Source: Candidatus Magasanikiibacteriota bacterium (GTDB lineage: Bacteria > Patescibacteriota > Patescibacteriia > Magasanikbacterales > GWA2-37-8). From it: DNA of 64,000 nt. The stretch spans positions 7,748-71,747 of the forward strand of contig JBAYGI010000005.1 in assembly GCA_041666745.1 (NCBI GenBank), in the 5' to 3' direction. Position 1 is the first letter of the stretch; every line of letters starts with the position of its first letter. The position numbers and the translations under genes are program-made. Below the pieces are notes generated by a model, which worked only from the letters and a program-made list of their open reading frames with translations, had not been told where the DNA came from and ran no database searches. This document shows, piece by piece, positions 11,906-44,977 of this stretch.

Positions 11906-11920
11906 AAAATCTATAACTAA

Positions 11921-14866: not shown

Positions 14867-15056
14867 ATACCATTAATTTAACACTGTTTACTATAAAAAA
14901 CAAGAGCAGGTCCAAACCAAAAACGAACGCTTAAATACTTGACAAAAGTGAGAAAAAATGATAGGTTTGGCCCATCCTCAGACGAGTGTTTGGAGGAAGT
15001 TCTGCATACCAACGCAGAATCTAGTTCCCTGACAATTCACAAGGCAGGAAAAATAC

Positions 15057-15554: not shown

Positions 15555-15605
15555 CACAGAGCTTCGGTTCGGGTTTCCGTTTTTCAAGACAAGAGGAGAA
15601 TTCAG

Positions 15606-30757: not shown

Positions 30758-31503
30758 AGCCAATAATATTAAAAATAATATTACCAATAACTACAATTCT
30801 GGTGTGGCATATATTTTCTGTAAGCGGTATGAACGCGTCGGAAATTTTGCCCGGGCCTGCCAAAGTAATATCAGCCATATTGACATTGTTTACTCAAGAA
30901 TCAGTTTTAACCGATGTAATAGTAAGCTTAAAGCATGTAGCTATTGGTTTTGCCCTAGCCACCCTTGGCGGTGTAATTGTGGGCATATTATCCGGTTACT
31001 CAAAAACTATAAAAATGATTATCGGTCCAATCTTGGAATTTCTGCGACCAATACCGCCTATAAGTTGGATTCCGTTATCAATTTTATGGTTTGGTATTGG
31101 TGATAACCCTGCTTACTTTTTGGTTTTCTTAGGTGCATTTTTCCCGATAATGAGTAATGTTTATTTTGGCGTTATATCAGTTGAAGAAAATCATAAACGT
31201 GCCGCCCTAAGCTTGGGTGCTGGAAAAAAAGAACATCTATTCGACATAATATTGCCTGCGGCTCTACCGTCTATTTTTACAGGATTAAAAACAGGTCTGG
31301 GTATTAGTTGGTTTATGGTTATTACTGCCGAACTGGTTGGTTCACAATCGGGGCTAGGCTACATGATACAGCTAAACAGGCTTTTGCTCCGAACCGATCG
31401 AGTAATCGGAGGAATGGTGATAATTGGCGTTTTGGGTTATCTCATGAGCAAGATAATGACGTATTCGGAACGCAAACTAATACCGTGGCGAGTTACTGTC
31501 TAG
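30754..31503 (+). CDS. ABC transporter permease (NitT/TauT family)
   Basis: 249 aa with six TM helices and an EAA-like loop. Start overlaps the SBP stop by 4 nt. Confidence 0.8.
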   Translation: MKPIILKIILPITTILVWHIFSVSGMNASEILPGPAKVISAILTLFTQESVLTDVIVSLKHVAIGFALATLGGVIVGILSGYSKTIKMIIGPILEFLRPIPPISWIPLSILWFGIGDNPAYFLVFLGAFFPIMSNVYFGVISVEENHKRAALSLGAGKKEHLFDIILPAALPSIFTGLKTGLGISWFMVITAELVGSQSGLGYMIQLNRLLLRTDRVIGGMVIIGVLGYLMSKIMTYSERKLIPWRVTV

Positions 31504-31509
31504 TTTGAT

Positions 31510-32274
31510 ATGGCTAAAATAATTCTTGATAATGTTTCAAAAAGATTTGTTGATAAAAGCAAACAGTCAATCCAATCTCTCAATAATTTATCTTTTGAAA
31601 TTGACGAATCGGAAATAGTCTGTATTTTGGGGCCTTCGGGGTGTGGAAAAACAACCCTGATAAATATGCTGGCCGGTTATATTTTCCCTGATGACGGTAA
31701 TATCTTGCATAATGACGAACGAATAAATGGGCCAAGTGCCGAGAGAGCAGTGGTTTTTCAAGATCACGCTCTTTTTTCATGGAAGACCGTCAGGGGAAAT
31801 ATTGATTTTGGGCTTAAATGTAAAAAAATTGATAAGGTAAAAAGGACAGAAATTATCAACGAATATATAAGCAAATTCAATCTTCACGGATTTGATAAAC
31901 ATTTTCCACATCAATTGTCTGGCGGTATGAAACAAAGGGTCGGATTAGCTCGTGCTTTGGCCATAAAACCGGAGGTATTGCTTATGGATGAACCATTTAG
32001 TTCTTTGGACGAACAAACGAGAGAATTTTTACAAGAAGATCTGTTGCGAATCCATAGCGATATTAAGCCGACGATTGTTTTAGTAACGCACAACATTGAA
32101 GAAGCTATTTTTCTTGCCGACAAAATTATTGTATTAACCAAAAGACCCGGTACCATAAAAACAATTATTAAAGTGCCTTTTAACAGGCCTCGCCAATACG
32201 AAATTAGAAACTGCACTGATTTTCTACAATTTCGACAAAGTATTTGGAAAATTATACGAGAAGAGATAAGATAG
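31510..32274 (+). CDS. ABC transporter ATP-binding protein (NitT/TauT family)
   Basis: Walker A GPSGCGKTT, signature LSGGMKQRVGLARAL, Walker B LLMDEPFSSLD. Confidence 0.85.
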   Translation: MAKIILDNVSKRFVDKSKQSIQSLNNLSFEIDESEIVCILGPSGCGKTTLINMLAGYIFPDDGNILHNDERINGPSAERAVVFQDHALFSWKTVRGNIDFGLKCKKIDKVKRTEIINEYISKFNLHGFDKHFPHQLSGGMKQRVGLARALAIKPEVLLMDEPFSSLDEQTREFLQEDLLRIHSDIKPTIVLVTHNIEEAIFLADKIIVLTKRPGTIKTIIKVPFNRPRQYEIRNCTDFLQFRQSIWKIIREEIR

Positions 32275-32399: not shown

Positions 32400-33278
32400 C
32401 TATCTACCCCCTGTTTTTACAGCGGGTTTTTTAGTTCTCTCTTCAATCATCTTCAAATACATCACACTATTTTTTTTGTAAATACTAGACAGTCTAGAAG
32501 CAGACTCGAATTCTGACTTTGCTTTTGAAAAATTATTCGCAGAAAAATATGCTATCGCCAATTCAAAATGCAGATCAGGTTCTTTGTCTAAAATCAGTTT
32601 AAGGTGTTCCAAAGTAGATGTAGCAAAATCTATATCCCCTTCTCGCCTAGCAATCAAGGCACTATAATATATCCCTGGCAAATTTGTCGGATCATCTTGT
32701 AAAAATTTTTGCGCCATCGTCTTGGCTATAGCCAAACTGCTTTCGGTGGTTTTTTCATCTCCCAAAATAAAAGAATTATCCGCTAAAATTATAAAAACAC
32801 GCAGAGCGCTACGGGTGGTTTCATAATCGTTTGGGGTATTTTTCAAAACTTCCAAATAATTTTCCGCCGCCTCTTTTTCTATCCCCTCCATATACGGGAT
32901 TAAAAAGTCACAAATTTTTGCAACGGCCAAATAATTTAAATAATTTTTGGGATTTAATTCTTTGGCCTTGCGGTAATCTACCAATGCTATAGCGGACGTC
33001 TTTTGAAATTCTATTGCTTGCGCGTCGGATAAATTTTTGTTTTCACTAATCATTTGACGCATTTTTTTAAACAACACATCTCCGGATCGACGATAAAAAT
33101 TTTCATCTTTTTTAACTTCTAAATTTGTGACCGATTGTTTCAATTTGGAATCTTGTTTTGAAAAATAAATAAAAGTTCCTGCCAAAATAAAAATCAATAC
33201 CAACAACAAACAAAAAATAATAATTTTTTTCTTTTCAAATTTTAAAGTGAGAATATTTTTTGTTTTCCGTCGATACAT
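32400..33278 (-). CDS. TPR-repeat membrane-anchored protein
   Basis: N-terminal TM helix followed by TPR-like helical repeats. 292 aa. Confidence 0.5.
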   Translation of the reverse strand: MYRRKTKNILTLKFEKKKIIIFCLLLVLIFILAGTFIYFSKQDSKLKQSVTNLEVKKDENFYRRSGDVLFKKMRQMISENKNLSDAQAIEFQKTSAIALVDYRKAKELNPKNYLNYLAVAKICDFLIPYMEGIEKEAAENYLEVLKNTPNDYETTRSALRVFIILADNSFILGDEKTTESSLAIAKTMAQKFLQDDPTNLPGIYYSALIARREGDIDFATSTLEHLKLILDKEPDLHFELAIAYFSANNFSKAKSEFESASRLSSIYKKNSVMYLKMIEERTKKPAVKTGGR

Positions 33279-33299: not shown

Positions 33300-36200
33300 T
33301 TATGGTGTAGTGATAATTTCGGTAGCTGGTGGCACAGTCTCCGTTGGTGGTGTTTCAGCAGGAGGGGTTGTAGGGATACTTTCGACAGGAGGAGTTTCGG
33401 TTGTGATAACCGTAACTGGCTCAGTAGAAGTAGGTGCCCCTGTATCCACTATTGGCTCTGTTGAGCCAACAACAACATCACCTGACACAATATTTCCACC
33501 ATCTGTACTGCCCACAGCCGGTGCCACTACCTGATTTTTCTGTAACAAATCTTGCAACTGAGCTTCGGTAACACAAGTATTTCCAATGCACAATTCATTG
33601 GTGTGAATCTTTTCCGCAAAAAATTCTTTCACTTGCAAAAACCCGTCTTTAATAATCATTCCTAACTTACTCAAAGCATATTTTACAGTAATAGAAAATT
33701 TATCCAAAACTGTCGGAGTGCTAGTGCTGGTGGTACTGGTAACTAGTGTTTCAGGAATATCTTCCTCGGTCAAATCACCAATCGACCAATGTGGATTAAC
33801 AAAAATCTCAACTGTTCCGGTTGTGACAGTATCACCATTTGAAGACAAAGAAGTCAACGCAAAACCGATAACTCTGCCAGGTTCTTTTGCTTTTGTGGCA
33901 AAACCGGCAACGTTGGAAGCAGTGATTCCATCGCCGACATTAATTGTACCACTGGTAATGACAACATTCACAGGCACACGTCCGGCCAAAGCAACCAAAC
34001 GCGAAAATGTCGCGTCAGAATCATCTGAATTCAATCCTGACCCACCCAATATCATACCTGGGGCGGTGGAGATAACACCGATTGATTTATCACTTGATAA
34101 TTCAGAACATTTTTCTACAAAATAAACGCCCGTTGACGAACTATTTTTTGTACAAACTACATCACCGGCAACCGGACAAGAATTATTTTCCGCACAGCTT
34201 GGATCCACCGGATATGTTTCGGCCAAATCCAAAGTGGTTGTACCGGTTATAAACGAAGTGGCTTTAATGTATCCATTTACTCCAAGCCCGGCACCAGAAG
34301 CACCACCGGCATCGATGACCATTTTGTAACCAGTGACGTTGGTGGTGGTGTTCACTAAAATCGAACCAACAAAAGTAGTAGAAACTACATTCAAATTTTG
34401 AGACCAAACATTCTTCCAACGATAACTCGAAGTACCTAAATCATAAATAGAATCTGTTTCCGGAATTATGTCGTGTGTGGTAACTTTATTTAAACTAGTA
34501 TCACCGGTAACTTTCAGCGAAATCAAATTTTGATCATCACCAATTTTCAAAACATGATCAGTGTCATTGACAGATAATGCGCGGTAAATTGTATTGTTCC
34601 AACCAATGTTTACAAACACAGTAATAGACCCAACTGATGCGCCGGAATAACTTTCCATGGCGATACCAACAGTTGGTCCTTCGGCGGTTGCTTTCATAGC
34701 AACACCTGGAACATCCGAAGAAGTCAATTTGTCGCCTACCACAATCGCGCCATTCACAGTAGAAACTTTGGTCGGCACACGACCAGCCAAAGCCACTTTT
34801 CGCACACCAGCATTATCTTCCAAATTTCCAAAATCACCACCACCAAGCAACAACCCAGGATCAGTAGATACTATACCAATTACAGTATTGTCATACAAAT
34901 TAGAACATTTTTTTACTCCGGAATTCAAAGATGAATCCGAACAAACCAAATCACCTGCATTCGGACAACTTCCGTTGGCATAACAATTGGAATTTATCGG
35001 ATATGTCTCGGCGATATCTAATGTTGAAGAGCCGGTTATCAATGAAGTCGCATTAATCACCCCGCGCACTCCAATCCCATATCCTGTATCCGAACCAGAA
35101 TCTATAATCAATTTATACGCCGTAGCGCCCATATATGACGATGTGTTGATCAATACTTTACCGTCAGATTTCACTAAAAGTATATTTGCGGTTGAAGAAT
35201 TACTAACTTGAAAAATAGTTTCATAAGCTGCGTCAGTATATAATTGCAACCTTGCTGTGGGAGTGGTAGTCCCTATACCAACTTTACCACCTGAAGGAAC
35301 GATACCTAATAAACCTCCACTTGATACTGTAAAGGAAGAATAATTAGCCGAATCATAATTCAAACGAAGCTGTTCGGTTGTACTTAATACTTGCAGTTGG
35401 GAAGCTGGGGTTGATGTGCCTATACCAACTTTACCATTCATATTTATCCTCATCCTCTCAGACCAATCAGTAGTTTGATCAGACACTCCATTTGTGAAAA
35501 AAGCCAAACCAGATCTAAAATAATCTCCTTCTGCAGTTTGCAATATACCAGCAGATTTTTTCGTATATCCATTTCCATAACCTGTTTTCCATATTAAACC
35601 ACCACCAAAAGCAGTTCCAGTACCTGTTCCTGATGGGCCATTATTTATGCCGAACCTAACAGAGCTTGTATCAGTAAGACCTGTAGTAGCAAAATCAAGT
35701 TTTTCACTTGGTACAGCAGTGCCGGTACCAATACCAACATTGCCAGCATTAGAAATAATCATTCTCAGTGTTTCACCTGATCCAGTTATAAATCTAATAA
35801 CACCTTCTGTGCTTGCAGGGCTGGATGGACTACCAGCGGCAAAAAACAGATTGCCTCTTTGGTTTACAGTTGCACTATATGTATTACCACGCCCGCCGAA
35901 ATATGGACCATTTGCATTACTAAATGTTGGTGTCGCGCCAAACATATATCCACCAGTCATATCAGAACCACTCAAATATACCATGTTTGTGTCATAACTA
36001 TTCGAAGCAGCTGCTCCTAATTGTATATTGCCCTCTCCAGAACTATTGCCACCCGTCAGCTTCAAAGATGAGCCATTAGCAAAAGTAGTCGCAACAGAAT
36101 TTGCAGGAGTAATGGTCAAAGCACCGTCTGATCCTACAGAAAAATCCGTGTAGTTGGCGGCAGAACCGTCTGAATCGTTGTAGGTAAGTCGCAAATCAGC

Positions 36201-37589
36201 ACCGGTGGCGGAATTTATTTCTAATGCTTTGCCCGGTCCGGTGGTGCCAATACCTACATTTCTTGTACTATTTACCATATACAATGTTGGCGCAGTAAAA
36301 GTAATCGCCGAATCTGCATCGCCAGTAGCTGCTTGATAAAAAGAAATATCACCGTTAGAATCTCTATAATTTACAAGAGAAACATAATCTGCCGCAAGAC
36401 GTTTCCATCCACTGCTATTATATATATTATGACCCATGATAGAACCGCCAGCAATATCAAATACTAAACCGTATGCGGCACTCGCGCCGTCTAATTGTAA
36501 AGTTGATTTTGGTGTGATAGTACCAATTCCAATTTTACCGTCTCCTTTTATCGTCAAGCGAGCTGTGCTGTTGTATCCTGCATTATACAAAGAACCAAAC
36601 ACCATATCTACTGTTGTCCCATTATATCGCGTATCTATTTGACCAGTAATATTAGAGCTATCGCGCCAAGTAATAGCTTTTTGTGCGCCGTTGGCATTAT
36701 ATCCTGTTCTAAAATTTAAAATCTCACTATTTGCGGATGTTGTACCAGCATCTGTAATCTGAAATTTCGTAGTAGTACCTGTATTTGAAGGGGCAAGAGT
36801 AAGTGCTCCATTACTACCCACAGTGAAAGAAGAATAATTAGACGCGTCATAATTCAATCTCAGCTGTTCTGTAGTTGCTAAAACCCCCAACTTTGCCGAC
36901 GGTGTTGTCGTACCAATGCCTACATTACCTCCTGTAGTCGCAAAAGTCGCGCCGTATGGGAAAGTAGAAGTGGCCGAACCGTAAATCGTGGTGGTGGCTG
37001 TGCCATTTCCTACGCTAATTCCTGTGCCTGCGCCGGATTGTAATATGTTCAAGGCCGGTGAAGCGGAATTGGCAGTAATGGACAAAATATTACTAAATGT
37101 CCAAGTCGCTGTGATTGTTTCGTTTGTTGCCAACTTTGCATAAGAGGAAGAAGCTAACCCGCCAAGTTTACCTGCCTCAAATGCCGATGGCACTGTGCCA
37201 AGTTTTTTGCGAGGCAATAATGTTTCCATCGTCGTTGTGCTATTGTCACTCACCTGCATTTCAAGATACAAATCTTGATTGAAATTTACACTGTCTAAAT
37301 TCGCCACTGAACCAAGTAATACACTAAATAATCCATTGGTCACTTGCACTTGGTTGGTGCTGGTGCGCGTTTCTGTCCATAGTACCGAACTACAGCCATC
37401 ATCCGCGCACAATTGGAATTGCATGTTGTACACACCATCAGCTACCGCCGCGTCACTGTTATTAGTCAGCTTACCTTGGTAGTTTATTTGAGGGTTATAA
37501 GTGGTGGCTTTGGAAACGCCAAACATAGCCAAAGAGATCGTGGCTATTATGAGCACTATTGCTACTTTCCCAAACCGCCAATTGTACAT
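33300..37589 (-). CDS. giant Gly/Thr/Ser-rich surface protein with internal repeats (the ORF track extends to 37682; the likely start is the Met before the TM helix)
   Basis: N-terminal TM VAIVLIIATISLAMFG. Three copies of TTEQLRLNYDASNYSSFTV(G/S)S-like units. Two copies of an approximately 90-aa Cys-containing module (…LDIAETYPINSNCYANGSCPNAGDLVC… and …LDLAETYPVDPSCAENNSCPVAGDVVC…). Pro/Thr-rich C-terminus. Confidence 0.6.
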   Translation of the reverse strand: MYNWRFGKVAIVLIIATISLAMFGVSKATTYNPQINYQGKLTNNSDAAVADGVYNMQFQLCADDGCSSVLWTETRTSTNQVQVTNGLFSVLLGSVANLDSVNFNQDLYLEMQVSDNSTTTMETLLPRKKLGTVPSAFEAGKLGGLASSSYAKLATNETITATWTFSNILSITANSASPALNILQSGAGTGISVGNGTATTTIYGSATSTFPYGATFATTGGNVGIGTTTPSAKLGVLATTEQLRLNYDASNYSSFTVGSNGALTLAPSNTGTTTKFQITDAGTTSANSEILNFRTGYNANGAQKAITWRDSSNITGQIDTRYNGTTVDMVFGSLYNAGYNSTARLTIKGDGKIGIGTITPKSTLQLDGASAAYGLVFDIAGGSIMGHNIYNSSGWKRLAADYVSLVNYRDSNGDISFYQAATGDADSAITFTAPTLYMVNSTRNVGIGTTGPGKALEINSATGADLRLTYNDSDGSAANYTDFSVGSDGALTITPANSVATTFANGSSLKLTGGNSSGEGNIQLGAAASNSYDTNMVYLSGSDMTGGYMFGATPTFSNANGPYFGGRGNTYSATVNQRGNLFFAAGSPSSPASTEGVIRFITGSGETLRMIISNAGNVGIGTGTAVPSEKLDFATTGLTDTSSVRFGINNGPSGTGTGTAFGGGLIWKTGYGNGYTKKSAGILQTAEGDYFRSGLAFFTNGVSDQTTDWSERMRINMNGKVGIGTSTPASQLQVLSTTEQLRLNYDSANYSSFTVSSGGLLGIVPSGGKVGIGTTTPTARLQLYTDAAYETIFQVSNSSTANILLVKSDGKVLINTSSYMGATAYKLIIDSGSDTGYGIGVRGVINATSLITGSSTLDIAETYPINSNCYANGSCPNAGDLVCSDSSLNSGVKKCSNLYDNTVIGIVSTDPGLLLGGGDFGNLEDNAGVRKVALAGRVPTKVSTVNGAIVVGDKLTSSDVPGVAMKATAEGPTVGIAMESYSGASVGSITVFVNIGWNNTIYRALSVNDTDHVLKIGDDQNLISLKVTGDTSLNKVTTHDIIPETDSIYDLGTSSYRWKNVWSQNLNVVSTTFVGSILVNTTTNVTGYKMVIDAGGASGAGLGVNGYIKATSFITGTTTLDLAETYPVDPSCAENNSCPVAGDVVCTKNSSSTGVYFVEKCSELSSDKSIGVISTAPGMILGGSGLNSDDSDATFSRLVALAGRVPVNVVITSGTINVGDGITASNVAGFATKAKEPGRVIGFALTSLSSNGDTVTTGTVEIFVNPHWSIGDLTEEDIPETLVTSTTSTSTPTVLDKFSITVKYALSKLGMIIKDGFLQVKEFFAEKIHTNELCIGNTCVTEAQLQDLLQKNQVVAPAVGSTDGGNIVSGDVVVGSTEPIVDTGAPTSTEPVTVITTETPPVESIPTTPPAETPPTETVPPATEIITTP

Positions 37590-37596
37590 AACCTGT

Positions 37597-38052
37597 TTAC
37601 GGTCTTGTTGAGGATGCCGTAAAACCCGAAGAAACCTCTGACGAGTGTTCAGAATAAATGGTATTAAGCTGAAACGCGCCAAAGTTGAGATCTTTTTTAG
37701 AGGTAAAATCTTCTTTGGTTGTAGAGAATTTGGCTACATATAAGTAAAAAATTAATAATAAAATAATTAAAAAACCGGCCACAATAAGACCGGCTGGTTT
37801 GTTTTTTAAATTTTGTTGTTTTGAAGACACTACTACGAGCTTATCGTCACCCAATTTTTTGACCATGAACATCCGCAAGTCCGACTCCCTCACACACCAA
37901 TTTCTACCCAATCGCTCGCCGTGTAATTTACTACCACGAATTAGAGAACTCAAATAGTCCTGGTGATAACCAGAAATACGGGAGGCCTCTTTTAAAGAAA
38001 TAAGCCCACTCATATAGTATATTTTACCCATATCGTCTATCCGAGATCTCAT
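37597..38052 (-). CDS. small membrane protein with N-terminal HTH-like segment
   Basis: 151 aa. MerR/excisionase-like N-terminal helix-turn-helix (…LISLKEASRISGYHQDYLSSLIRGSKL…) and one TM helix. Confidence 0.35.
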   Translation of the reverse strand: MRSRIDDMGKIYYMSGLISLKEASRISGYHQDYLSSLIRGSKLHGERLGRNWCVRESDLRMFMVKKLGDDKLVVVSSKQQNLKNKPAGLIVAGFLIILLLIFYLYVAKFSTTKEDFTSKKDLNFGAFQLNTIYSEHSSEVSSGFTASSTRP

Positions 38053-38151
38053 ATCGGATATCCGATGTTAATAATATAAACATATTATAACACAAAAAAG
38101 CATTCCGAAGAATGCTTTTGCTCTAAAAATAAAAAAATGTGTGGATAACTA

Positions 38152-39342
38152 TTATTTTTTTCGTCGACGCTTACTCAAGAGACGTAAAATCAAAAATAAA
38201 ATTATCATAATCGACGACACCCACTGCCAAAAATATTTTTGCGCCACTGTTTTTTTAACGACACCGATCGCGGTAGATAATATTGGTGCTTTGGGTATTT
38301 GTGGAACTATTTCAGTTTGAGGAGAAACCAACACCGCTTTAGAATTAATTAAACCCTCAACACTCCCAATCATCAAGTTGTTGTTATTTAAAAAAGAAAA
38401 AATGGCTTTGATACTACCATCTACACAAAAAGCTGGTAAACCCACTACATGAGCCAAAATATCCTGATCATTTTTCAGCAAAAAAGTCTGTATTTGCCCT
38501 TTATTATCCAAAGTCACTATTACGGTTTTGGTGCCTTTGGGGATTTTTTTGTTGTCCAAATAAATATTGATCGGTAAATTATTCAAAACATCCACCTTTT
38601 TGTTATCTTCTGAAACAAAATTCTGACCATTTTGTTCAAAAATAAAATCACTAAACTCCACCGGTCGCCCCTTTGGTGGCTGTATTACTTTTGGAACACT
38701 CAATTCAGGTGTTTTTTCAATCGGTTTTACTTCTAGTTTTTTAATTTGATCCATCTCCGGTGATTGCGGAAGAGCCGAAACACTGGCTCCGGAAGAAAAA
38801 ACATTGCCGGTATTGTAAACAAAAACAGTATAAAAATACCTGACTCCATTTTTTAAACCTATATCCGCGTATTCAAAAGTATTTTTGCCAATCTCTAAAC
38901 CGACACCTTGATACAACAACCCACCGACGTCAACATTGGTTGGGAAAAAAACAGTTGACCGACGAATCATTATACCGCCGTAATCTATCAAATCTACCGG
39001 CTTCGTCCAGCGCAATACTACCTGTTTGTCCCCTGCTTGCGCTGATAGATTGTCCACATTTAAAACTATCACTACTACCGGTTTTTGTGTCACAGGAATT
39101 CCAGTGCCTCCACTGCTTGGAGCGACTACAGGGGTTACCGGTGGTGTGGTAGTGGCGACTGGGCAGTCCGCTGGACAAACCGTAGTATTTTCACCACTTT
39201 CACAAACGCCATTATTATTACAACTGGATACTAATAGATTTATGTCTATGTTTTTGCTACTATTGGTGGCCGAAACAAAAATAGGCCTAAAAAGTATGCC
39301 ATCAAAAAATAGAATAATTAAAAAAACTTTTGAACCACGCAT
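38152..39342 (-). CDS. cell-surface protein with C-terminal TM anchor and basic tail
   Basis: Signal peptide, Thr/Pro-rich linker, an FN3-like segment, and a C-terminal TM followed by KRRRKK. Confidence 0.45.
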   Translation of the reverse strand: MRGSKVFLIILFFDGILFRPIFVSATNSSKNIDINLLVSSCNNNGVCESGENTTVCPADCPVATTTPPVTPVVAPSSGGTGIPVTQKPVVVIVLNVDNLSAQAGDKQVVLRWTKPVDLIDYGGIMIRRSTVFFPTNVDVGGLLYQGVGLEIGKNTFEYADIGLKNGVRYFYTVFVYNTGNVFSSGASVSALPQSPEMDQIKKLEVKPIEKTPELSVPKVIQPPKGRPVEFSDFIFEQNGQNFVSEDNKKVDVLNNLPINIYLDNKKIPKGTKTVIVTLDNKGQIQTFLLKNDQDILAHVVGLPAFCVDGSIKAIFSFLNNNNLMIGSVEGLINSKAVLVSPQTEIVPQIPKAPILSTAIGVVKKTVAQKYFWQWVSSIMIILFLILRLLSKRRRKK

Positions 39343-39344
39343 GT

Positions 39345-40103
39345 TTAATTGGATGTTCCGGTTATTACAATTGTGGCGGTATATTCACCGCTTTGTTGAA
39401 CATTTTGAGAGCCGGATTTTGCTTTTACTTTTATTGTGGTCGTAGCGACCGTCGGATCGTTTGAGCTGTCCGATGAGCTAACCTGTTCGTCGGTAGTCAA
39501 AAAATAATCCCAACATTTGTCTGCCGTGTCACTACCACCACTTTGGTTGCAAATACTGCCATTATCTAAATATTTCTGAACCAAATCCGCCCCTTCCGGT
39601 GTAAAACCGAAAGCTGATGAAGTTTCAGCCGAGCTCCATGTAAAATCTGAATTTACCCCAGCCGGATAATTTGGAAACGAACTTGATGCGGATTTTAATG
39701 CCGGATCAGTAGTGGATTTTATTTTCAAAGAATAACCCGCAGAATTATTGGTCAAAACACCGACTGCCAATGAACCGTTTGATTCTCCACCAGTTAAACC
39801 GCCAATACTTGATAAAACAACCGGACTACCACTTACCGACATTGTTAAAAAAGTACTTTGATCCATTTGCTGATAGCCCGCTCGCAATTTAAAATTTGTA
39901 CTAGTCGCTGAACCGCTGGCAATTTCACCCATCGTATCCTCTATTTTGTAATTTGTAGAAGTTCCTATCCCTCCAGCATTATTTACAGAATCAAACTGTA
40001 CACGATAGTTGGTACTGGACATCACATACGCAAAAACCGGCTGAGAAAATATCGCGGCTAATACTACCAACAAAATGAAGTATTTTAGGGAAAACTTTTT
40101 CAT
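39345..40103 (-). CDS. secreted beta-rich surface protein (paralog of 41150..41800)
   Basis: Signal peptide. Shared blocks GLTGGESNGS…YSLKIKSTTDPALKS…SSFPNY… and a C-terminal GEYTATIVITGTSN. Confidence 0.5.
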   Translation of the reverse strand: MKKFSLKYFILLVVLAAIFSQPVFAYVMSSTNYRVQFDSVNNAGGIGTSTNYKIEDTMGEIASGSATSTNFKLRAGYQQMDQSTFLTMSVSGSPVVLSSIGGLTGGESNGSLAVGVLTNNSAGYSLKIKSTTDPALKSASSSFPNYPAGVNSDFTWSSAETSSAFGFTPEGADLVQKYLDNGSICNQSGGSDTADKCWDYFLTTDEQVSSSDSSNDPTVATTTIKVKAKSGSQNVQQSGEYTATIVITGTSN

Positions 40104-40108
40104 ACTGT

Positions 40109-41086
40109 TTATTCTTGGTCTTTCCTTTTGATTTCAAAGTTTTCCTTAAACCAACCGTGAAGAAGTTTTAATAGACCAATCAAAATTAGGAATCCGGCAA
40201 CAATCGCAGTTACTACTTTCCATGGCAAAATCCAAAAATATACTGTTTTTGTATCTATAACATCTTGATACCCTCTATTCATCTGCAAAACTGCTTTATA
40301 AAACCCAAACATGAATTTCCTTTCTACCAGATAGTCTTTTTGACGTACCGATCCGGGCATTACAAAATATGGATTGACAACTTGTTCTTCTATTTTTGTG
40401 CCCAAACTATTGTAAACAGTCAAAATACCGTACGGATTTAAATATATATTACCGGTATTTTCGTATAAAGATTTGAATGGAATCTGTGGATCGGAATAAA
40501 ACTTGGCACTGGCATAAAAATCTTGCAATTGACCACTGGTTTTGATTTCCCCATTGACTCTCACAAAAAACAATGAAGCCAATCTAGAAATAACAGTGAT
40601 GTTTCCAGCCACCACTTCTGAACCAACCGCATTTGTAGTAGTTGCCGGCCTGGTAGTTACTATAACCGCACCATACAAACCACTAGGTTGGGCATCGCGC
40701 GGTATTTCGATTTTAATAGGAATAGTAATACGCTGGCCATGTTGCAAAGTAAATTCCGCTATTTCCGGATGTAAAAAATCTCGCAAAGAATAAGGGCCCT
40801 TTTCTGACCCCAATAACACCAATGGTTCTAGTGGATTTCTTGATCCAGCAAAGTCCTCTATTTCTATTTTGAAAGACATGTCTTGACCATAACGATTGGT
40901 CACTATTAAATTTTTTGCCGCCGAACCCCCCGGATCAAGTGATAGCTCTGTTTTTCCCGGACCGATTACATAATCACCAGCAACTGGCGTTGTTACTAAA
41001 TTTTCTATTTGTATAGCCAAAACTGGACGCGCAAAAAAACAGGCAAATATAAAAATAGCTAAAAAGATGATTTTTTTACAAAACAT
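40109..41086 (-). CDS. surface protein with C-terminal TM anchor (DUF916/DUF3324-like topology)
   Basis: Signal peptide, a beta-rich ectodomain, and a C-terminal TM followed by a KENFEIKRKDQE tail. Confidence 0.45.
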   Translation of the reverse strand: MFCKKIIFLAIFIFACFFARPVLAIQIENLVTTPVAGDYVIGPGKTELSLDPGGSAAKNLIVTNRYGQDMSFKIEIEDFAGSRNPLEPLVLLGSEKGPYSLRDFLHPEIAEFTLQHGQRITIPIKIEIPRDAQPSGLYGAVIVTTRPATTTNAVGSEVVAGNITVISRLASLFFVRVNGEIKTSGQLQDFYASAKFYSDPQIPFKSLYENTGNIYLNPYGILTVYNSLGTKIEEQVVNPYFVMPGSVRQKDYLVERKFMFGFYKAVLQMNRGYQDVIDTKTVYFWILPWKVVTAIVAGFLILIGLLKLLHGWFKENFEIKRKDQE

Positions 41087-41149
41087 ACATTAAATAAAAA
41101 CTACCTTTTGTATATAGATAGTTTATCATCATTATAGAAAAATTGCAAA

Positions 41150-41800
41150 TTAAAGTGTAGCTGCTGTGATTGTTATGGTAGCGGAATAACTACCGGATGG
41201 TTGACCCTTTGCATTGCCCACTTCTGCCTTATATCGAACAGTAGTGGTAACACCACTAACAGTGGTTTGAATACTTTTGGATGCTATTTGTGTCGCATTT
41301 GTACCGTCAAAACCTACAAAACAATGATCAAGTCCGATCACTGAACCAGGTGCGCCACAAGCACTAGCACCATCATTTTTAAACGCAGCCACAACATCGG
41401 TAGAAGTAACTGAAAAACCAAATTTTGCTTCAGCAGCGGCCACAGTCCAAGAGTAATCGGGAGTAGAGGTGGCAATATAATTAGCAAAAGAACTGTGTCC
41501 GTCAGCAGTCATGAGGGCTGGCGACGTTGTTGGAGTAAGAGTAAGAGTATAGCCATTGTAATTATTAGTTTTTACATTGCAATCCACATCGGCAGTTGCA
41601 GAGCCACCGGTTAAACCAGCTATGGTGCCTAAATTAGCCGTAGCGACCGGACAAGCTAATGATAATTCATCTGATACCGTCAAAGATACTGTGGTAGTAG
41701 AAACAGAAGAAGTAGCCAAAACCACATCAGCCTCCAAAGCCGCAAAAATCCCGTAGCTTAACAAGATTGCGATAACTGATAAAAACAAAACCTTTTTCAT
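41150..41800 (-). CDS. secreted beta-rich surface protein (paralog of 39345..40103)
   Basis: Signal peptide, GLTGGSATADVDCNVKTNNYNGYTLTLTPTTSPALMT…SSFANY…, and a C-terminal GSYSATITITAATL. Confidence 0.5.
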   Translation of the reverse strand: MKKVLFLSVIAILLSYGIFAALEADVVLATSSVSTTTVSLTVSDELSLACPVATANLGTIAGLTGGSATADVDCNVKTNNYNGYTLTLTPTTSPALMTADGHSSFANYIATSTPDYSWTVAAAEAKFGFSVTSTDVVAAFKNDGASACGAPGSVIGLDHCFVGFDGTNATQIASKSIQTTVSGVTTTVRYKAEVGNAKGQPSGSYSATITITAATL

Positions 41801-41874
41801 ATAAATACATTATACCACATATTCGATATTCTGTGATCAATACACAGGTGGATAATATGTGGATAAGAATATTT

Positions 41875-43503
41875 TTATTTCAAAGTCGCTTTAATTAGCC
41901 CGACAAATAGTGGGTGCGGATGTGTTGGGCGCGATTTTAATTCCGGATGAAACTGTGTTCCTACAAAAAATGGATGATTTTTTAATTCCACAATTTCTAC
42001 GAGATCTTTTTCTTTGTTAATACCAACCACCTTTAAACCGGCCTTATCCATCATTTCACGATATGCGTTGTTGAATTCATAGCGATGGCGATGGCGCTCG
42101 CTAATTTCTTTTATACCATACAATTTGGCTGTTTTACTGTCTGTTTCAAGTGAACAATCATAAGCCCCCAAACGCATTGTGCCACCATACCTGTTTTTAC
42201 TGACATTTTGAGCTTGCTGTTTGTTGATATGAATAATCAAATTTTTAGTTTTAGGATTTACTTCTATGGTATGCGCATCTTTTAAGCCCAATACATGGCG
42301 AGCGAATTCTACTGATGCCAATTGCATTCCATAGCACAAACCAAGATATGGCAAATTGTTTTCACGAGCAAATTGAATCGCCAATATTATACCTTCGATA
42401 CCGCGAGTACCAAATCCACCCGGGACAATCAAAGCATCATAATTGGACAGTTCCTTCAGTTTTTTTGCGTCTTTTTCATAATCTTCTGAATCAATCCACG
42501 CCATCTCTGCTTCCGCGCCCAAACTCCACGCCGCATGTTTTACCGCTTGAATTACTGAAATATATGAATCTGCCAAAGTAAAATCACCGGTAGCAAAGTA
42601 TTTACCAACGACAGCGACTTTGACTTTCTTTTTGGCTGACTTCATTTTGGTAATAAACTGATCCCATTCAGTGCTTTTGTGTCCTTTATCTAACTTAATT
42701 TTTAATCTCTTGGCCAACAAATGACCAAATTTTTGTTTTTCCAAAACTTCCGGTATATCATAAATACTCTCCACATCCGGGGCAGACACTACGTCTTCTT
42801 TTGATTGCATCCAACAAAAGAAAGCCAATTTTTCACGTCTAGGCTGATCCAATTCATGTTGACCGCGAGCCACAATGAAATCCGGTTGAATTCCACAATT
42901 ATTTAAAGTACGAGCGGCGTGTTGAGTTGGTTTGGTTTTCATTTCACCCAAATGAGAGGGTACCGGTAAATAACTCACTAGCACAAAAGCCACATCGTTT
43001 GGATTGTCCAATTTCATCATGCGAGCGGCGTCCAAAAACAAAATATTTTCATACTCACCTACTGTCCCGCCAATTTCGACTACCATAATATCCGCTTTGG
43101 TTTTTTCTGACGCGGCTTTGATACGAGCAATAATTTCCATTGGAATATGTGGCACTACCTGAACACAACGTCCTTTGTAACCCATATTGCGTTCTTTTTC
43201 AATCACACTAAGATAAACACGCCCAGTAGTCATATAGTTGGTGGAATACAAGTTGGTATCCAAAAATCTCTCATAATTACCGAGATCCTGATCGGTTTCA
43301 TCACCATCTTCAGTCACAAACACTTCACCGTGCTCGACCGGATTCATCGTGCCGGCATCTACATTGATATATGGATCAATTTTAATCGCTGAAACATTAA
43401 ATCCATAATTTTTAAAAATACGACCAATCGAAGCGGCGGTAATACCCTTGCCCACACCACTCAAAACACCTCCAATAATGAAAATATACTTTGTTTTACG
43501 CAT
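41875..43503 (-). CDS. pyrG: CTP synthase PyrG
   Basis: N-terminal KYIFIIGGVLSGVGKGI and a C-terminal glutamine amidotransferase domain. 542 aa. Confidence 0.9.
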   Translation of the reverse strand: MRKTKYIFIIGGVLSGVGKGITAASIGRIFKNYGFNVSAIKIDPYINVDAGTMNPVEHGEVFVTEDGDETDQDLGNYERFLDTNLYSTNYMTTGRVYLSVIEKERNMGYKGRCVQVVPHIPMEIIARIKAASEKTKADIMVVEIGGTVGEYENILFLDAARMMKLDNPNDVAFVLVSYLPVPSHLGEMKTKPTQHAARTLNNCGIQPDFIVARGQHELDQPRREKLAFFCWMQSKEDVVSAPDVESIYDIPEVLEKQKFGHLLAKRLKIKLDKGHKSTEWDQFITKMKSAKKKVKVAVVGKYFATGDFTLADSYISVIQAVKHAAWSLGAEAEMAWIDSEDYEKDAKKLKELSNYDALIVPGGFGTRGIEGIILAIQFARENNLPYLGLCYGMQLASVEFARHVLGLKDAHTIEVNPKTKNLIIHINKQQAQNVSKNRYGGTMRLGAYDCSLETDSKTAKLYGIKEISERHRHRYEFNNAYREMMDKAGLKVVGINKEKDLVEIVELKNHPFFVGTQFHPELKSRPTHPHPLFVGLIKATLK

Positions 43504-43539
43504 AAAACATTAGTTATTTATAATTAAATATTTAAAAGA

Positions 43540-43572
43540 AAAAATATAAACAAACTAAAAACGGACAGTGAT
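43540..43572 (-). terminator. bidirectional hairpin terminator after rplI
   Basis: AAAACGGACAGTGATACGTCCGTTTTTT. Confidence 0.45.
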
Positions 43573-43583
43573 ACGTCCGTTTT

Positions 43584-44030
43584 TTAGAGGGTTTCAACCC
43601 TGACCATGATCTGGGCCTCTAGACCGTGGTTTAACTTTACTTTTACTTTGTATTCTCCGGATTTTTTAATGTTTAAATTTTCAATCCGATTTTTTTCAAT
43701 TTTGAAACCACGTTTGTGGAGCTCCTGGGCTAGCCGCTGGGATCCTATCGAAGCGTATAAAATACCGGCCTCGCTCGCCTTTTCTTTGACTACAATCTCT
43801 ACTCCATCTAGACGTCCGGCCAAAGACTGCAATTCCTTCAACTCTTTCTCGGCTGATTTGACTTCTTTGTGCTTACGTTCGCTTAATTCTTTAATATTTT
43901 TTTCTAGGGCATGTACCGCTAGGTGCTTCGGGAACAAAAAATTGCGAGCATATCCTTCGCTTACTTCCGTGATTTCGTCTGCTTTCCCTACCCCTTTTAC
44001 ATCCTGTAATAAAACAACTTTCATAGCCAT
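43584..44030 (-). CDS. rplI: 50S ribosomal protein L9
   Basis: MAMKVVLLQDVKGVGKADEITEVSEGYARNFLFPKHLA. Confidence 0.8.
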   Translation of the reverse strand: MAMKVVLLQDVKGVGKADEITEVSEGYARNFLFPKHLAVHALEKNIKELSERKHKEVKSAEKELKELQSLAGRLDGVEIVVKEKASEAGILYASIGSQRLAQELHKRGFKIEKNRIENLNIKKSGEYKVKVKLNHGLEAQIMVRVETL

Positions 44031-44089
44031 CTTGCTTTTTCCTCTAAATTACGCTAGTATTATATCACTAATGAATTAAAACTGCAATT

Positions 44090-44974: not shown

Positions 44975-44977
44975 CTT

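What the first reader, a model, noticed from the sequence alone, without database searches (positions are those of the whole stretch)
33300..41800. Cell-surface gene cluster: 1460-aa Gly/Thr-rich giant protein, two paralogous secreted beta proteins and C-terminally anchored partners
Five consecutive minus-strand genes all encode exported proteins. The giant protein has an N-terminal TM, three copies of a (L)TTEQLRLNYDxxNYSSFTV unit and two copies of an approximately 90-aa Cys-containing module, ending in a Pro/Thr-rich stalk. 39345..40103 and 41150..41800 are clear paralogs with shared blocks and a G(E/S)Y(T/S)ATI(V/T)IT C-terminus. 38152..39342 and 40109..41086 end in a TM plus a basic tail. 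The arrangement of secreted paralogs plus C-terminally anchored proteins is reminiscent of the WxL/DUF916/DUF3324 surface clusters of Firmicutes. It could be an attachment or host-interaction apparatus, which is relevant if the organism is an episymbiont.
Basis: partly seen in the sequence, partly recalled or inferred. Interest (0 to 1): 0.55.

Follow-up and report, generated by a model that had tools for sequence, protein, structure and literature searches.

The report
Usher-less donor-strand pilus cluster in CPR
This gene cluster from an ultrasmall Candidatus Magasanikbacteria (CPR) genome most likely builds a thin surface filament by the strand-swapping trick of Gram-negative chaperone-usher pili, but with a membrane-tethered chaperone and no usher, next to a variable tail-fibre-like adhesin, so it is a strong candidate for how these bacteria attach to other cells.

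Summary
The genes are real, co-directional and tightly packed, but there are six of them, not five. A and C are paralogs (BLASTP E 9e-26; profile comparison E 2.6e-57). B and D end in a transmembrane helix plus a basic tail.

**Component evidence**
- **B:** the model (pLDDT 92.6) shows two Ig-like domains plus an anchor. Its best PDB match is the E. faecium WxL-interacting protein (DUF916/DUF3324), followed by chaperone-usher chaperones.
- **D:** this family carries fibronectin type III (FnIII) domains.
- **F:** a mosaic tail-fibre-like protein.

**Synteny:** the order A-B-C-D-(E)-F recurs in 80 CPR loci.

**New evidence:** the 11-residue N-terminal strand of A-type pilins recurs at the mature N-terminus of the D anchor (44 of 60, 4 expected). 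It co-varies with A by lineage. It is absent from C-type pilins.

**Proposed roles:** C is the tip, A the polymerising pilin, D the membrane anchor and B the chaperone.

**Verdict:** this is a compact variant of the Pam pilus described in a 2026 preprint. No filament or assembly was tested.

The parts
41150..41800 (-). A: 216-aa secreted single-domain pilin, proposed to be the polymerising (donor plus acceptor) subunit.
   Evidence: It has a signal-like N-terminus and is a paralog of C. Pilins upstream of the chaperone carry the A-type N-terminal strand in 72 of 76 loci and never carry the C-type extension. The C-terminal GxYxATITITA motif is family-wide.
41669..41701 (-). N-terminal extension of A (STTTVSLTVSD), the proposed donor strand.
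   Evidence: This is a conserved block with alternating hydrophobic residues in the A-family alignment. A scoring matrix built from it matches the mature N-terminus of D-family proteins. Coordinates were checked.
40109..41086 (-). B: 325-aa membrane-tethered chaperone, WxLIP-like and PapD-like, with a signal peptide, two Ig-like domains and a C-terminal TM.
   Evidence: The AF2 model has pLDDT 92.6. Foldseek hits are WxLIP 9i1y/9i25 at E 9e-12, then RbmA and the CfaA, CsuC, Caf1M and FimC chaperones. PF06030 hits 48 of 56 family members. The family profile hits EfmWxLIP1 in the PDB at E 4e-4.
40556..40681 (-). Long hairpin of B (residues 136-177) with a low-confidence tip and the conserved strand ISRLASLFFVRV. 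This is the proposed donated strand.
   Evidence: Strands 136-147 and 167-177 flank a loop with pLDDT below 50 at residues 153-159. R168, L172, F174 and R176 are nearly invariant. The region aligns with the EfmWxLIP1 region. The WxLIP hairpin completes the WxL beta-sandwich (PMC10599100). The equivalence is inferred.
39345..40103 (-). C: 252-aa secreted pilin paralog, PamT-like, proposed to be the acceptor-only tip subunit.
39858..40028 (-). N-terminal extension of C: three S-x-N-Y/F repeats ending in AGYQQM.
   Evidence: This region is densely conserved in the C family, with D38, G44, G59 and G76 invariant. Yet its pLDDT is below 50 in the monomer model. It lies within the stretch matched by the PamT model, residues 10-133.
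38152..39342 (-). D: 396-aa FnIII protein with an N-terminal pilin-like strand, a Cys-rich mini-module, Pro/Thr linkers and a C-terminal TM plus KRRRKK tail. It is the proposed donor-only terminator and membrane anchor, PamR-like.
   Evidence: Pfam fn3 hits 29 of 39 family members. The family profile hits FnIII domains in the PDB at E 7e-12. A C-terminal TM is present in 49 of 55. The best match to the A-strand matrix lies at the mature N-terminus in 44 of 60, against 4.1 expected.
39223..39255 (-). N-terminal strand of D (KNIDINLLVSS), the counterpart of the A donor strand.
   Evidence: This is the best A-strand matrix hit in the window's D, 12 aa after the signal h-region. Taken alone it is weak (p about 0.1). 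Family-wide position enrichment is p about 1e-26, and same-locus co-variation with A was matched in 0 of 5000 permutations.
37597..38052 (-). E: 151-aa HTH_17/excisionase-like domain followed by one TM. It is a possible membrane-bound regulator.
   Evidence: Pfam HTH_17 E 0.0025 and TIGR01764 E 0.0022. The TM spans residues 82-113. E-like genes occur in 41 of 80 loci, either between D and F or, as longer forms, upstream of A.
33300..37589 (-). F: 1429-aa secreted tail-fibre-like mosaic adhesin.
   Evidence: PHROG 9942 tail fiber gives E 1.1e-11. NCBIfam Bdello_MAT_N gives E 3.2e-7. The N-terminal ~200-250 residues are conserved in most of 52 F-like ORFs (36-48 per 50-residue bin over residues 1-200) while the rest varies. 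Homologs carry LVIVD, Peptidase_S74, Peptidase_G2, PA14 and beta-helix domains. F-like genes follow D in 51 of 80 loci.
36840..37505 (-). Conserved N-terminal domain of F. The mature N-terminus is TTYNPQINYQGKLT.
   Evidence: It is conserved across related loci directly after AxA-type cleavage sites. Part of it matches Bdello_MAT_N.
34542..35198 (-). F module 1, about 210 aa with 4 Cys. It is distantly Peptidase_G2-like.
   Evidence: It is 44% identical to module 2, E 1e-47. It aligns to homolog P0359 at 1639-1779, where Pfam places Peptidase_G2 at 1647-1705.
33780..34403 (-). F module 2, the second copy.
   Evidence: It gives a weak Peptidase_G2 hit at E 0.041.
41809..41837 (-). Promoter-like site upstream of A (ATCACA-17-TATAAT with a TG extension).
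   Evidence: This is a consensus scan only, matching 10 of 12 positions. It lies in the 74-nt gap between pyrG and A.
38096..38119 (-). Terminator-like hairpin between D and E.
   Evidence: A 10-pair stem followed by a T-rich tail, from a consensus scan only. It lies in the 99-nt gap between D and E.

Best explanation
The cluster encodes a compact, usher-independent donor-strand pilus of the CPR 'Pam' type, together with a tail-fibre-like adhesin.

**Proposed mechanism**
1. A, B, C, D and F are exported by Sec. This is inferred from their signal-like N-termini.
2. B stays in the cytoplasmic membrane through its C-terminal helix. It caps the incomplete Ig-like fold of newly exported pilins with its long conserved hairpin strand. 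This is inferred from homology to WxLIP and to chaperone-usher chaperones.
3. C is PamT-like. It has no pilin-type N-terminal strand, so it only accepts a strand and starts the fibre at the distal tip.
4. A has both a short N-terminal strand and the acceptor domain. It polymerises head to tail by displacing the chaperone strand.
5. D has the same N-terminal strand but no pilin domain. It plugs the last subunit and ties the fibre to the membrane through FnIII spacers and a C-terminal helix.
6. F is a secreted, probably trimeric fibre. It has an invariant N-terminal docking domain and a lineage-variable distal part, and it supplies target specificity.
7. E may regulate the locus.

**Shown here:** the folds, the remote homologies, the topologies, the synteny, and the shared, co-varying strand of A and D.

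**Inferred:** strand exchange itself, the order of subunits, filament formation, and any physical link between F and the fibre.
For: - **Organism:** the window is a Candidatus Magasanikbacteria MAG (100% hits WCT11_03115 and WCT11_03120).
- **C:** NF058579 CPR_pilus_PamT gives E 1.6e-10, hits 56 of 60 family members, and NF058581 Pam pilin C-domain hits 5 of 60.
- **B fold:** pLDDT 92.6, with two beta-sandwiches plus a TM. Hits are WxLIP at E 9e-12, then RbmA and the CfaA, CsuC, Caf1M and FimC chaperones.
- **D:** fn3 in 29 of 39 and a C-terminal TM in 49 of 55. This matches the PamR description in preprint 10.64898/2026.03.03.709456.
- **Shared strand:** the A-strand matrix finds its best hit at the mature N-terminus of D in 44 of 60, against 4.1 expected. 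Controls were B 5 of 79 (7.7 expected) and F 0 of 48.
- **Co-variation:** same-locus A and D strands score 15.8 against a permuted 9.6+-1.4, matched in 0 of 5000 permutations.
- **Two pilin classes:** upstream pilins carry the strand in 72 of 76 cases; downstream pilins carry it in 1 of 72.
- **Synteny:** conserved in 80 CPR loci, with no further conserved gene such as an usher or sortase.
- **Adhesin:** a tail-fibre-like gene is adjacent, as reported for pam operons.
- **Family size:** 9317 representative clusters match the B-family profile at E<=1e-3.
Against:
- Sequence similarity to the Pam system rests on PamT only, at 40.8 bits against a cut-off of 240.
- A, B and D hit no Pam model.
- The two-domain major pilins that define the solved Pam filaments are absent.
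- B could not be compared directly with PamC or PamD.
- For the window's own D, the strand match alone is weak (p about 0.1). The strength comes from the family.
- The permutation test ignores phylogenetic relatedness.
- The matrix for the A strand was built from many of the same upstream pilins it was then scored on.
Confidence: 0.65

Rival explanations
1. The cluster is a non-filamentous surface-display complex of the WxL/Csc type. The membrane-anchored WxLIP-like protein B permanently holds A and C on the cell surface by completing their beta-sandwich. There is no polymerisation. D and F are independent surface proteins.
For: - The best sequence and structure relative of B is WxLIP.
- The commonest WxL cluster has one WxLIP plus two partner paralogs, and the WxLIP hairpin completes the partner's sandwich (PMC10599100).
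- No evidence of polymerisation was obtained here.
Against: - A and C have no WxL domain or motif.
- C is a PamT relative.
- A-type pilins carry a conserved N-terminal strand that D shares and that co-varies with it. A static 1:1 complex does not explain this.
- The pilin fold matches polymerising subunits.
Confidence: 0.2
2. The cluster serves the giant fibre F. On this view A-D are accessory wall or anchor proteins that hold or export the tail-fibre-like adhesin, or they are simply co-located surface proteins, and they do not form a pilus of their own.
For: - F-like genes follow D in 51 of 80 loci.
- F has an invariant N-terminal domain of the kind proposed to dock Bdellovibrio MAT fibres to an unknown surface element (PMC10769870).
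Against: - Several loci keep A-B-C with no D called, or with F displaced by more than 4 kb (L008, L021, L022, L027, L032, L041).
- The chaperone-like and pilin-like folds, and the donor-strand logic, are self-sufficient.
- F lacks the A-type strand (0 of 48).
Confidence: 0.1
3. The cluster is a prophage or phage-derived tail module inserted in the chromosome.
For: F matches a PHROG tail-fibre family. Its homologs carry Peptidase_S74 and Peptidase_G2 domains typical of phage fibres.
Against: - No B relative was found in 2.9 million IMG/VR viral contigs.
- The cluster sits between housekeeping genes (pyrG, rplI, era, an ABC transporter).
- It is syntenic across many CPR lineages.
- No other phage genes are nearby.
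Confidence: 0.03

Closest known systems
Pam pilus of Candidatus Mycosynbacter amalyticus (CPR, Saccharimonadia); preprint 10.64898/2026.03.03.709456; NCBIfam NF058579 and NF058581
   Same: - Sec-exported Ig-like pilins assembled by donor-strand exchange.
- A PapD/FimC-like chaperone held in the membrane by a C-terminal helix.
- An FnIII protein with an N-terminal strand and a C-terminal helix, proposed as terminator and anchor (PamR).
- A single-domain tip pilin of about 25 kDa (PamT), to which C is a significant though distant match.
- No usher.
- A tail-fibre-like gene next to the operon.
- Restricted to CPR.
   Different: - No two-domain major pilins (PamA 55 kDa, PamB 39 kDa, PamE). Here the putative major pilin is a 216-aa single domain with a short N-terminal strand, as in classical chaperone-usher pilins.
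- One chaperone, not two.
- The gene order differs.
- Only PamT is detectable by sequence, at 41 bits against a cut-off of 240.
- The lineage is Magasanikbacteria, with relatives labelled Paceibacterota, Kaiser-, Nomura- and Zambryskiibacteria and others. [quoted passage not shown]
- No ATP synthase genes lie within 10 kb.
- An HTH-TM gene is part of the cluster.
WxL / Csc cell-surface clusters of Firmicutes, with WxLIP = DUF916 + DUF3324 + TM (PMC10599100; PDB 9i1y, 9i25)
   Same: - B has the WxLIP architecture and is its closest structural and sequence relative in the PDB.
- The layout is one WxLIP-like gene flanked by two secreted paralogs plus a small C-terminally anchored protein.
- A WxLIP hairpin strand completes the partner's beta-sandwich.
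   Different: - The partners A and C have no WxL domain or Trp-x-Leu motifs.
- B itself does not reach any Pfam PF06030 hit at E<=1.
- The organism is CPR, not Firmicutes.
- The shared A and D N-terminal strand implies polymerisation and anchoring, which has not been proposed for WxL clusters.
Chaperone-usher pili of Gram-negative bacteria, especially the archaic Csu/CupE type and the Fim, Pap and CFA/I types
   Same: - A C-terminal G-x-Y-x-x-x-hydrophobic strand at the very end of the pilin.
- A short N-terminal strand with alternating hydrophobic residues on the polymerising subunit.
- The logic of a tip subunit without a donor strand.
   Different: - No outer membrane and no usher.
- The chaperone is membrane-tethered.
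- Termination is by a membrane-anchored donor-only protein, not by a PapH-like pilin.
- No Pfam PapD, usher or fimbrial domain hits.
Mosaic adhesive trimer (MAT) fibres of Bdellovibrio bacteriovorus (PMC10769870) and phage tail fibres
   Same: - F has an invariant N-terminal domain (weak Bdello_MAT_N match).
- It has fibre repeats of the GxVGIGTxxP type and a PHROG tail-fibre match.
- Its distal domains are swapped between homologs.
- It carries intramolecular-chaperone-type modules.
   Different: - The Bdello_MAT_N score is 30 bits against a cut-off of 60.
- The chaperone-like module is Peptidase_G2-like, duplicated and internal, rather than a terminal S74 domain.
- The gene is syntenic with a pilus cluster.
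- It has a C-terminal Pro/Thr-rich tail.

Membership tests
CPR Pam pilus system | PamT tip pilin, NCBIfam NF058579 equivalog, cut-off 240 bits. | tested here: not met
   C scores 40.8 bits, E 1.6e-10, over residues 10-133. 56 of 60 family members hit, best E 1.3e-15. C is a significant distant homolog, not an equivalog.
CPR Pam pilus system | [quoted passage not shown] | tested here: inconclusive
   Neither A nor C hits. 5 of 60 C-family members (best E 1.1e-5) and 1 of 45 A-family members (E 0.0088) hit. The fold is that of chaperone-usher pilins.
CPR Pam pilus system | Two-domain major pilins: a nine-strand N-terminal sandwich, a linker donor strand and a C-terminal domain, 39-55 kDa. | tested here: not met
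   A is 216 aa and C is 252 aa. The C model has one folded domain (residues 85-252) plus a disordered extension. No larger pilin gene is conserved in the 80 loci.
CPR Pam pilus system | PapD/FimC-like chaperone with a C-terminal transmembrane helix. | tested here: met
   The B model has two beta-sandwich domains plus helix 289-316. Foldseek hits CfaA, CsuC, Caf1M, FimC and DraB at E 1e-9 to 1e-6. A C-terminal TM is present in 75 of 77 family members. No direct comparison with PamC or PamD was possible.
CPR Pam pilus system | FnIII (RbmA-like) protein with an N-terminal strand and a C-terminal TM (PamR). | tested here: met
   fn3 in 29 of 39 members. FnIII hits in the PDB at E 7e-12. TM in 49 of 55. 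Pilin-type N-terminal strand in 44 of 60. No NCBIfam Pam model hit.
CPR Pam pilus system | No usher or trans-envelope machine; a tail-fibre-like gene adjacent; restricted to CPR. | tested here: met
   No further conserved family was found in the 80 loci. F-like genes occur in 51 of 80. Named homologs are nearly all CPR/Patescibacteria; the few TPA bins titled Gammaproteobacteria or Nanoarchaeia are probable mislabels.
CPR Pam pilus system | Forms extracellular filaments by donor-strand exchange. | not testable with these tools
   No multimer prediction or experimental data were available. The only support is indirect: the shared, co-varying N-terminal strand of A and D.
WxL / Csc cluster (Firmicutes) | WxLIP: signal peptide, DUF916 (PF06030), DUF3324 and a C-terminal TM. 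| tested here: inconclusive
   The architecture and the top structural hit agree. The family profile hits EfmWxLIP1 at E 4e-4, and 48 of 56 members hit PF06030 weakly. The window's B has no Pfam hit at E<=1, and PF11797 was never reported.
WxL / Csc cluster (Firmicutes) | Secreted partners carry a WxL domain (PF13731) with two Trp-x-Leu motifs. | tested here: not met
   No PF13731 hit in 60 C-family members at E<=1. The Trp contexts are WTV, WSS and WDY only. No WxL chain appears among the PDB sequence or fold hits shown.
Chaperone-usher pili | Outer-membrane usher encoded in the operon. | tested here: not met
   The window cluster has six genes and none is large and beta-barrel-like. No extra conserved family exists in the 80 loci.
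Chaperone-usher pili | Pilin with an incomplete Ig-like fold, completed by a chaperone or by a neighbour's strand. | tested here: inconclusive
   [not shown]
MAT / tail-fibre family (for F) | MAT N-terminal domain, NF053851, cut-off 60 bits. | tested here: not met
   30.3 bits, E 3.2e-7, at residues 52-128 in the 1460-aa numbering.
MAT / tail-fibre family (for F) | Invariant N-terminal domain with mosaic, swappable C-terminal domains. | tested here: met
   Coverage of F by 52 syntenic homologs falls from 36-48 over residues 1-200 to fewer than 10 after residue 350. Database homologs carry LVIVD, S74, G2, PA14, beta-helix or LamG domains.
MAT / tail-fibre family (for F) | Autoproteolytic intramolecular chaperone domain (Peptidase_S74 or Peptidase_G2). 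| tested here: inconclusive
   F has no S74 hit. Module 2 hits Peptidase_G2 at E 0.041. Module 1 aligns to the region of P0359 that Pfam calls Peptidase_G2.

The most novel reading that the evidence does not exclude
This four-gene module consists of an acceptor-only tip, a donor-plus-acceptor pilin, a donor-only membrane anchor and a membrane-tethered chaperone. On the most novel reading, it is the minimal form of an ancient monoderm donor-strand assembly system. That system would unite the CPR Pam pili with the Firmicute WxL/Csc clusters through the shared WxLIP-type chaperone. The syntenic MAT-like fibre F would dock on the system through its invariant N-terminal domain. That would make the pilus the long-sought kind of 'surface element' that holds such fibres, and F would be the host-range determinant of CPR episymbionts.
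Probability: 0.25. Interest if true: 0.78.

Novelty: new variant of a known kind. Interest (0 to 1): 0.55.

Why it matters
CPR bacteria are a very large share of bacterial diversity and appear to live attached to other cells, yet their attachment machinery is almost unannotated. All six genes here are 'hypothetical' with no precomputed Pfam hit.

If the reading is right, three things follow:
- A simple, widespread module builds thin surface fibres without an usher or sortase. The chaperone-family profile matches 9317 representative clusters (E<=1e-3), and 159 genome stretches encoding a relative (of which 80 loci were fetched) were confirmed, nearly all with CPR/Patescibacteria titles.
- The roles of its parts can be read from sequence alone. 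The donor strand is present on the pilin and on the anchor and absent from the tip.
- The module links three literatures that do not cite each other: Pam pili, WxL/WxLIP clusters and chaperone-usher pili.

The adjacent variable fibre gives a concrete candidate for host specificity that could be tested in cultured CPR-host pairs.

Tried and rejected
- **Direct family scans:** Pfam scans of A, B, C, D and F gave nothing. NCBIfam gave only the sub-threshold hits noted above, PamT for C and Bdello_MAT_N for F, and nothing for A, B or D.
- **PDB sequence searches:** searches with B, C and F as single sequences (A and D only as family profiles) gave nothing useful. Only family profiles reached WxLIP and FnIII.
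- **WxL-domain identity for A and C:** rejected.
- **Pam models for the A, B and D families:** no hits. Membership beyond PamT therefore rests on fold and architecture.
- **Extra conserved components:** usher, sortase, dedicated peptidase, ATPase and ATP synthase were sought by clustering unassigned ORFs in the 80 loci. Only the housekeeping neighbours gatB and obg recur.
- **G (32400-33278, TM plus TPR):** probably not a core part, since it occurs in 5 of 80 loci.
- **Phage origin:** rejected.
- **Literature link:** searches found no paper behind PDB 9i1y/9i25, and none linking WxL clusters to chaperone-usher or Pam pili.
- **F self-comparison:** a first self-BLAST of F listed no off-diagonal hits. 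Segment-against-segment BLAST was needed.

Full report
**1. What is in the sequence**

Between 33300 and 41800 the minus strand carries six tightly spaced genes:

| Gene | Coordinates | Length |
|---|---|---|
| A | 41150-41800 | 216 aa |
| B | 40109-41086 | 325 aa |
| C | 39345-40103 | 252 aa |
| D | 38152-39342 | 396 aa |
| E | 37597-38052 | 151 aa |
| F | 33300-37589 | 1429 aa |

The gaps are A-B 63, B-C 5, C-D 2, D-E 99 and E-F 7 nt.

- The ATG at 37589 restores a signal peptide. It agrees with the ENA gene call and with homologs whose genes start 3-4 nt after the E-like gene.
- A, B, C, D and F begin with hydrophobic signal-like segments. B and D end in a transmembrane segment and a basic tail.
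- A consensus scan places a promoter-like site in the gap between pyrG and A, and a terminator-like hairpin between D and E. These are pattern matches only.
- The window comes from a Candidatus Magasanikbacteria MAG, with identical proteins WCT11_03115 and WCT11_03120.

**2. The paralogs and the giant protein**

- A and C share their whole folded domain: BLASTP E 9e-26 and family profile comparison E 2.6e-57 over 170 columns.
- Both families always end in G-x-Y-x-A-T-(I/T)-x-(V/L)-T-A-x-x-N at the extreme C-terminus and never have a C-terminal anchor.

F has the following layout:
- a signal peptide and a conserved N-terminal domain;
- six GxVGIGTxxP fibre motifs;
- two near-identical copies and one divergent copy of the TEQLRLNYD..NYSSFTV unit;
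- two modules of about 210 aa, each with 4 Cys, 44% identical, E 1e-47;
- a Pro/Thr-rich tail.

**3. Identity of the parts**

Neither Pfam nor the precomputed annotations recognise any of A-D or F.

*C.* NCBIfam gives one informative hit. C matches NF058579, 'CPR-type pilus protein PamT', at E 1.6e-10 but only 40.8 bits against a cut-off of 240. 56 of 60 C-family members hit it, and 5 hit the Pam pilin C-domain model. The source is a 2026 preprint (10.64898/2026.03.03.709456) that solved two filaments of Ca. Mycosynbacter amalyticus. It proposed an usher-less, donor-strand-exchange pilus with these parts:
- two-domain pilins (PamA, PamB, PamE);
- a single-domain tip pilin (PamT);
- PapD-like chaperones with a C-terminal helix (PamC, PamD);
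- an FnIII protein with an N-terminal strand and a C-terminal helix (PamR);
- a conserved neighbouring tail-fibre-like gene.

*B.* The AF2 model (pLDDT 92.6) shows two beta-sandwich domains and a C-terminal helix.
- Its best PDB matches are the E. faecium WxL-interacting protein (9i1y/9i25, E 9e-12), then RbmA and the chaperones CfaA, CsuC, Caf1M, FimC and DraB.
- At sequence level, 48 of 56 family members weakly hit PF06030 (DUF916).
- The family profile finds EfmWxLIP1 at E 4e-4.

*C model.* It has a confident beta-sandwich at residues 85-252 and a low-confidence N-terminal extension that is nevertheless densely conserved.
- No WxL chain appears among them.

*D.* The family has FnIII domains (29 of 39; PDB FnIII hits at E 7e-12) and a C-terminal TM (49 of 55).

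*E.* It combines an excisionase/HTH_17-like domain with one TM. Longer relatives have one or two HTH copies, a TM and a conserved outer domain.

*F.* It matches a PHROG tail-fibre family (E 1.1e-11) and, weakly, the N-terminal domain of Bdellovibrio MAT fibres.
- Only the N-terminal ~200-250 residues are conserved among syntenic homologs.
- Database homologs swap in LVIVD, Peptidase_S74, Peptidase_G2, PA14, beta-helix or LamG domains.
- The duplicated module is distantly Peptidase_G2-like.

**4. Conservation**

A scan of one genome per species found 159 stretches encoding a B relative, and 80 loci were fetched. Nearly all have CPR/Patescibacteria titles; a few bins are evidently mislabelled.

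- Searching the six-frame ORFs of these loci with the window proteins gives B in 79, C in 74, D in 60, A in 59, F in 51 and E in 41 loci.
- The order is almost always (E)-A-B-C-D-(E)-F on one strand. Many loci are cut by contig ends.
- No other gene family is conserved with the cluster. There is no usher, sortase or ATPase.
- No relative of B is found in viral contigs.
- The B-family profile matches 9317 representative clusters at E<=1e-3.

**5. A test of the donor-strand logic**

The A family has a conserved 11-residue strand just after the signal peptide. In the window it is STTTVSLTVSD; in many lineages it is D-Q-F-T-V-T-Q-x-V-T-S. Four results follow from a position-specific matrix built from this strand.

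- **It marks the D N-terminus.** The best match anywhere in D-family proteins lies at their mature N-terminus in 29 of 39 aligned members (binomial p about 1e-26). Across all D ORFs it does so in 44 of 60, against 4.1 expected by position. Controls show no enrichment: B 5 of 79 (7.7 expected) and F 0 of 48.
- **It co-varies with A.** Within a locus, the A and D strands resemble each other more than across loci: mean BLOSUM62 score 15.8 against 9.6+-1.4, matched in 0 of 5000 permutations. An example is L054, with LTYPVELAVTS against VQYPVEVTVFS.
- **It separates two pilin classes.** Pilins encoded upstream of B carry the strand in 72 of 76 cases and never carry the C-type extension. Pilins downstream of B carry it in 1 of 72 and have the GYQQ extension in 50 of 72.
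- **The roles can then be read off.** The cluster encodes one subunit that can donate and accept (A), one that can only accept (C) and one that can only donate and is membrane-anchored (D).

Caveats:
- The window's own D strand is individually weak (p about 0.1).
- The permutation test does not correct for phylogeny.
- The matrix was trained on many of the upstream pilins it was then scored on.

**6. Most likely mechanism**

1. B remains in the membrane and caps the pilin domain of A and C. It would use its long conserved hairpin (residues 136-177, strand ISRLASLFFVRV). The WxLIP hairpin does this for WxL proteins (PMC10599100), and the G1 strand does it in chaperone-usher chaperones.
2. C primes the tip.
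3. A subunits add by strand exchange.
4. The strand of D closes the last groove and anchors the fibre through its FnIII and Pro/Thr spacers and its TM.
5. F is a separately secreted, probably trimeric adhesin whose variable distal part gives target specificity. Its invariant N-terminal domain presumably docks on a cell-surface element, as proposed for MAT fibres (PMC10769870). Whether that element is this pilus is unknown.

Folds, homologies, topology, synteny and the shared strand are shown. Strand exchange, subunit order and filament formation are inferred.

**7. Comparison and novelty**

The nearest described system is the Pam pilus.
- The architectural features are met: a tethered chaperone, an FnIII anchor with an N-terminal strand, no usher, a neighbouring fibre gene and CPR restriction.
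- The defining two-domain pilins are absent, and the PamT match is far below the equivalog threshold.
- I therefore file the cluster as a compact variant, not as a member in the strict sense.

The Pam preprint does not mention WxL or DUF916, and no paper in the library connects the two. The finding that the CPR pilus chaperone is WxLIP-like therefore appears to be a new link. It still needs a direct check on PamC and PamD.

**8. Verdict**

The feature is real, strongly conserved and biologically coherent. Its kind was described in 2026. This version is simpler and comes from different CPR lineages, and the roles of its parts can be read from sequence.

- Interest: 0.55.
- Novelty: new variant of a known kind.
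- Confidence in the pilus reading: 0.65.
- Main rival: a static WxL-type display complex, at 0.2.

Noticed in passing
It has an HTH_17/excisionase-like domain followed by one TM. In other CPR lineages, longer relatives sit upstream of the first pilin gene. They have one or two HTH copies, a TM and a conserved outer domain ending in SFSDEVxVKPDxxxSGIIxPVF. This may be a ToxR-like membrane-bound regulator of the locus.
   Followed up: partly
window 41711-41800 (-), signal region of A; alignment A4: A-type pilin signal regions carry a nearly invariant Glu (44 of 45) about 7 residues before the predicted cleavage site. It is followed by Pro (32) or Gly (8). This is unusual for a Sec signal peptide. 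It could mark a dedicated peptidase or a different mature N-terminus. It remains unexplained.
   Followed up: partly
L012:11938-14130, L017:4261-6579, L024:4543-6831, L070:6102-8294; window 32400-33278 (-): In four related loci a polytopic membrane protein of about 730-760 aa lies within or beside the cluster (between C and D in L012, L017 and L024; upstream of A in L070); C-terminal TPR repeats were confirmed for the L012 copy only. The window's G (TM plus TPR, downstream of F) resembles ORFs of about 760-850 aa in L020, L045, L048 and L066. The type of the membrane domain was not determined. A pilin-glycosylation role is conceivable, since the Pam preprint saw a sugar on PamA Ser356.
   Followed up: partly
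L021, L027, L032, L041 (about 11740-16400): In these loci, one of them on a 770-kb Magasanikbacteria contig, no D-type anchor follows C. A 222-aa secreted protein and other genes intervene, and the F-like gene (found in L027, L032 and L041; none in L021) lies about 4.4 kb further on. This may be a sub-variant with a different anchor.
   Followed up: no
window 33300-37682 (-): The NCBI annotation of F (WCT11_03100, 1408 aa) starts 21 codons inside the signal peptide. The ENA call (1429 aa, ATG at 37589) keeps the signal peptide. Public annotation would therefore miss that F is exported.
   Followed up: yes
window 39201-39260 (-), D residues 28-47; D-family N-termini: Just after its N-terminal strand, D carries a Cys-rich mini-module (CNNNGVCESGENTTVCPADC). 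The module is repeated two or three times in some relatives (L006, L012, L016). It is probably what produces the weak NCBIfam hits to a myxobacterial MXAN_2561 family.
   Followed up: no
loci L001, L004, L032, L041, L042 (record titles): Several third-party 'binchicken' bins that carry this CPR-specific cluster are titled Gammaproteobacteria or Nanoarchaeia. Many others are titled Saccharibacteria. These are probably taxonomic mislabels, so the lineage distribution read from titles is approximate.
   Followed up: no
window 29693-32274 (+) and 41875-46285: The cluster is flanked by ordinary housekeeping genes. One side has an NMT1/OpuAC-type ABC transporter (binding protein, permease, ATPase). 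The other has pyrG, rplI, era and an S41 C-terminal processing peptidase. The ATP synthase genes reported next to pam operons are not within 10 kb.
   Followed up: partly
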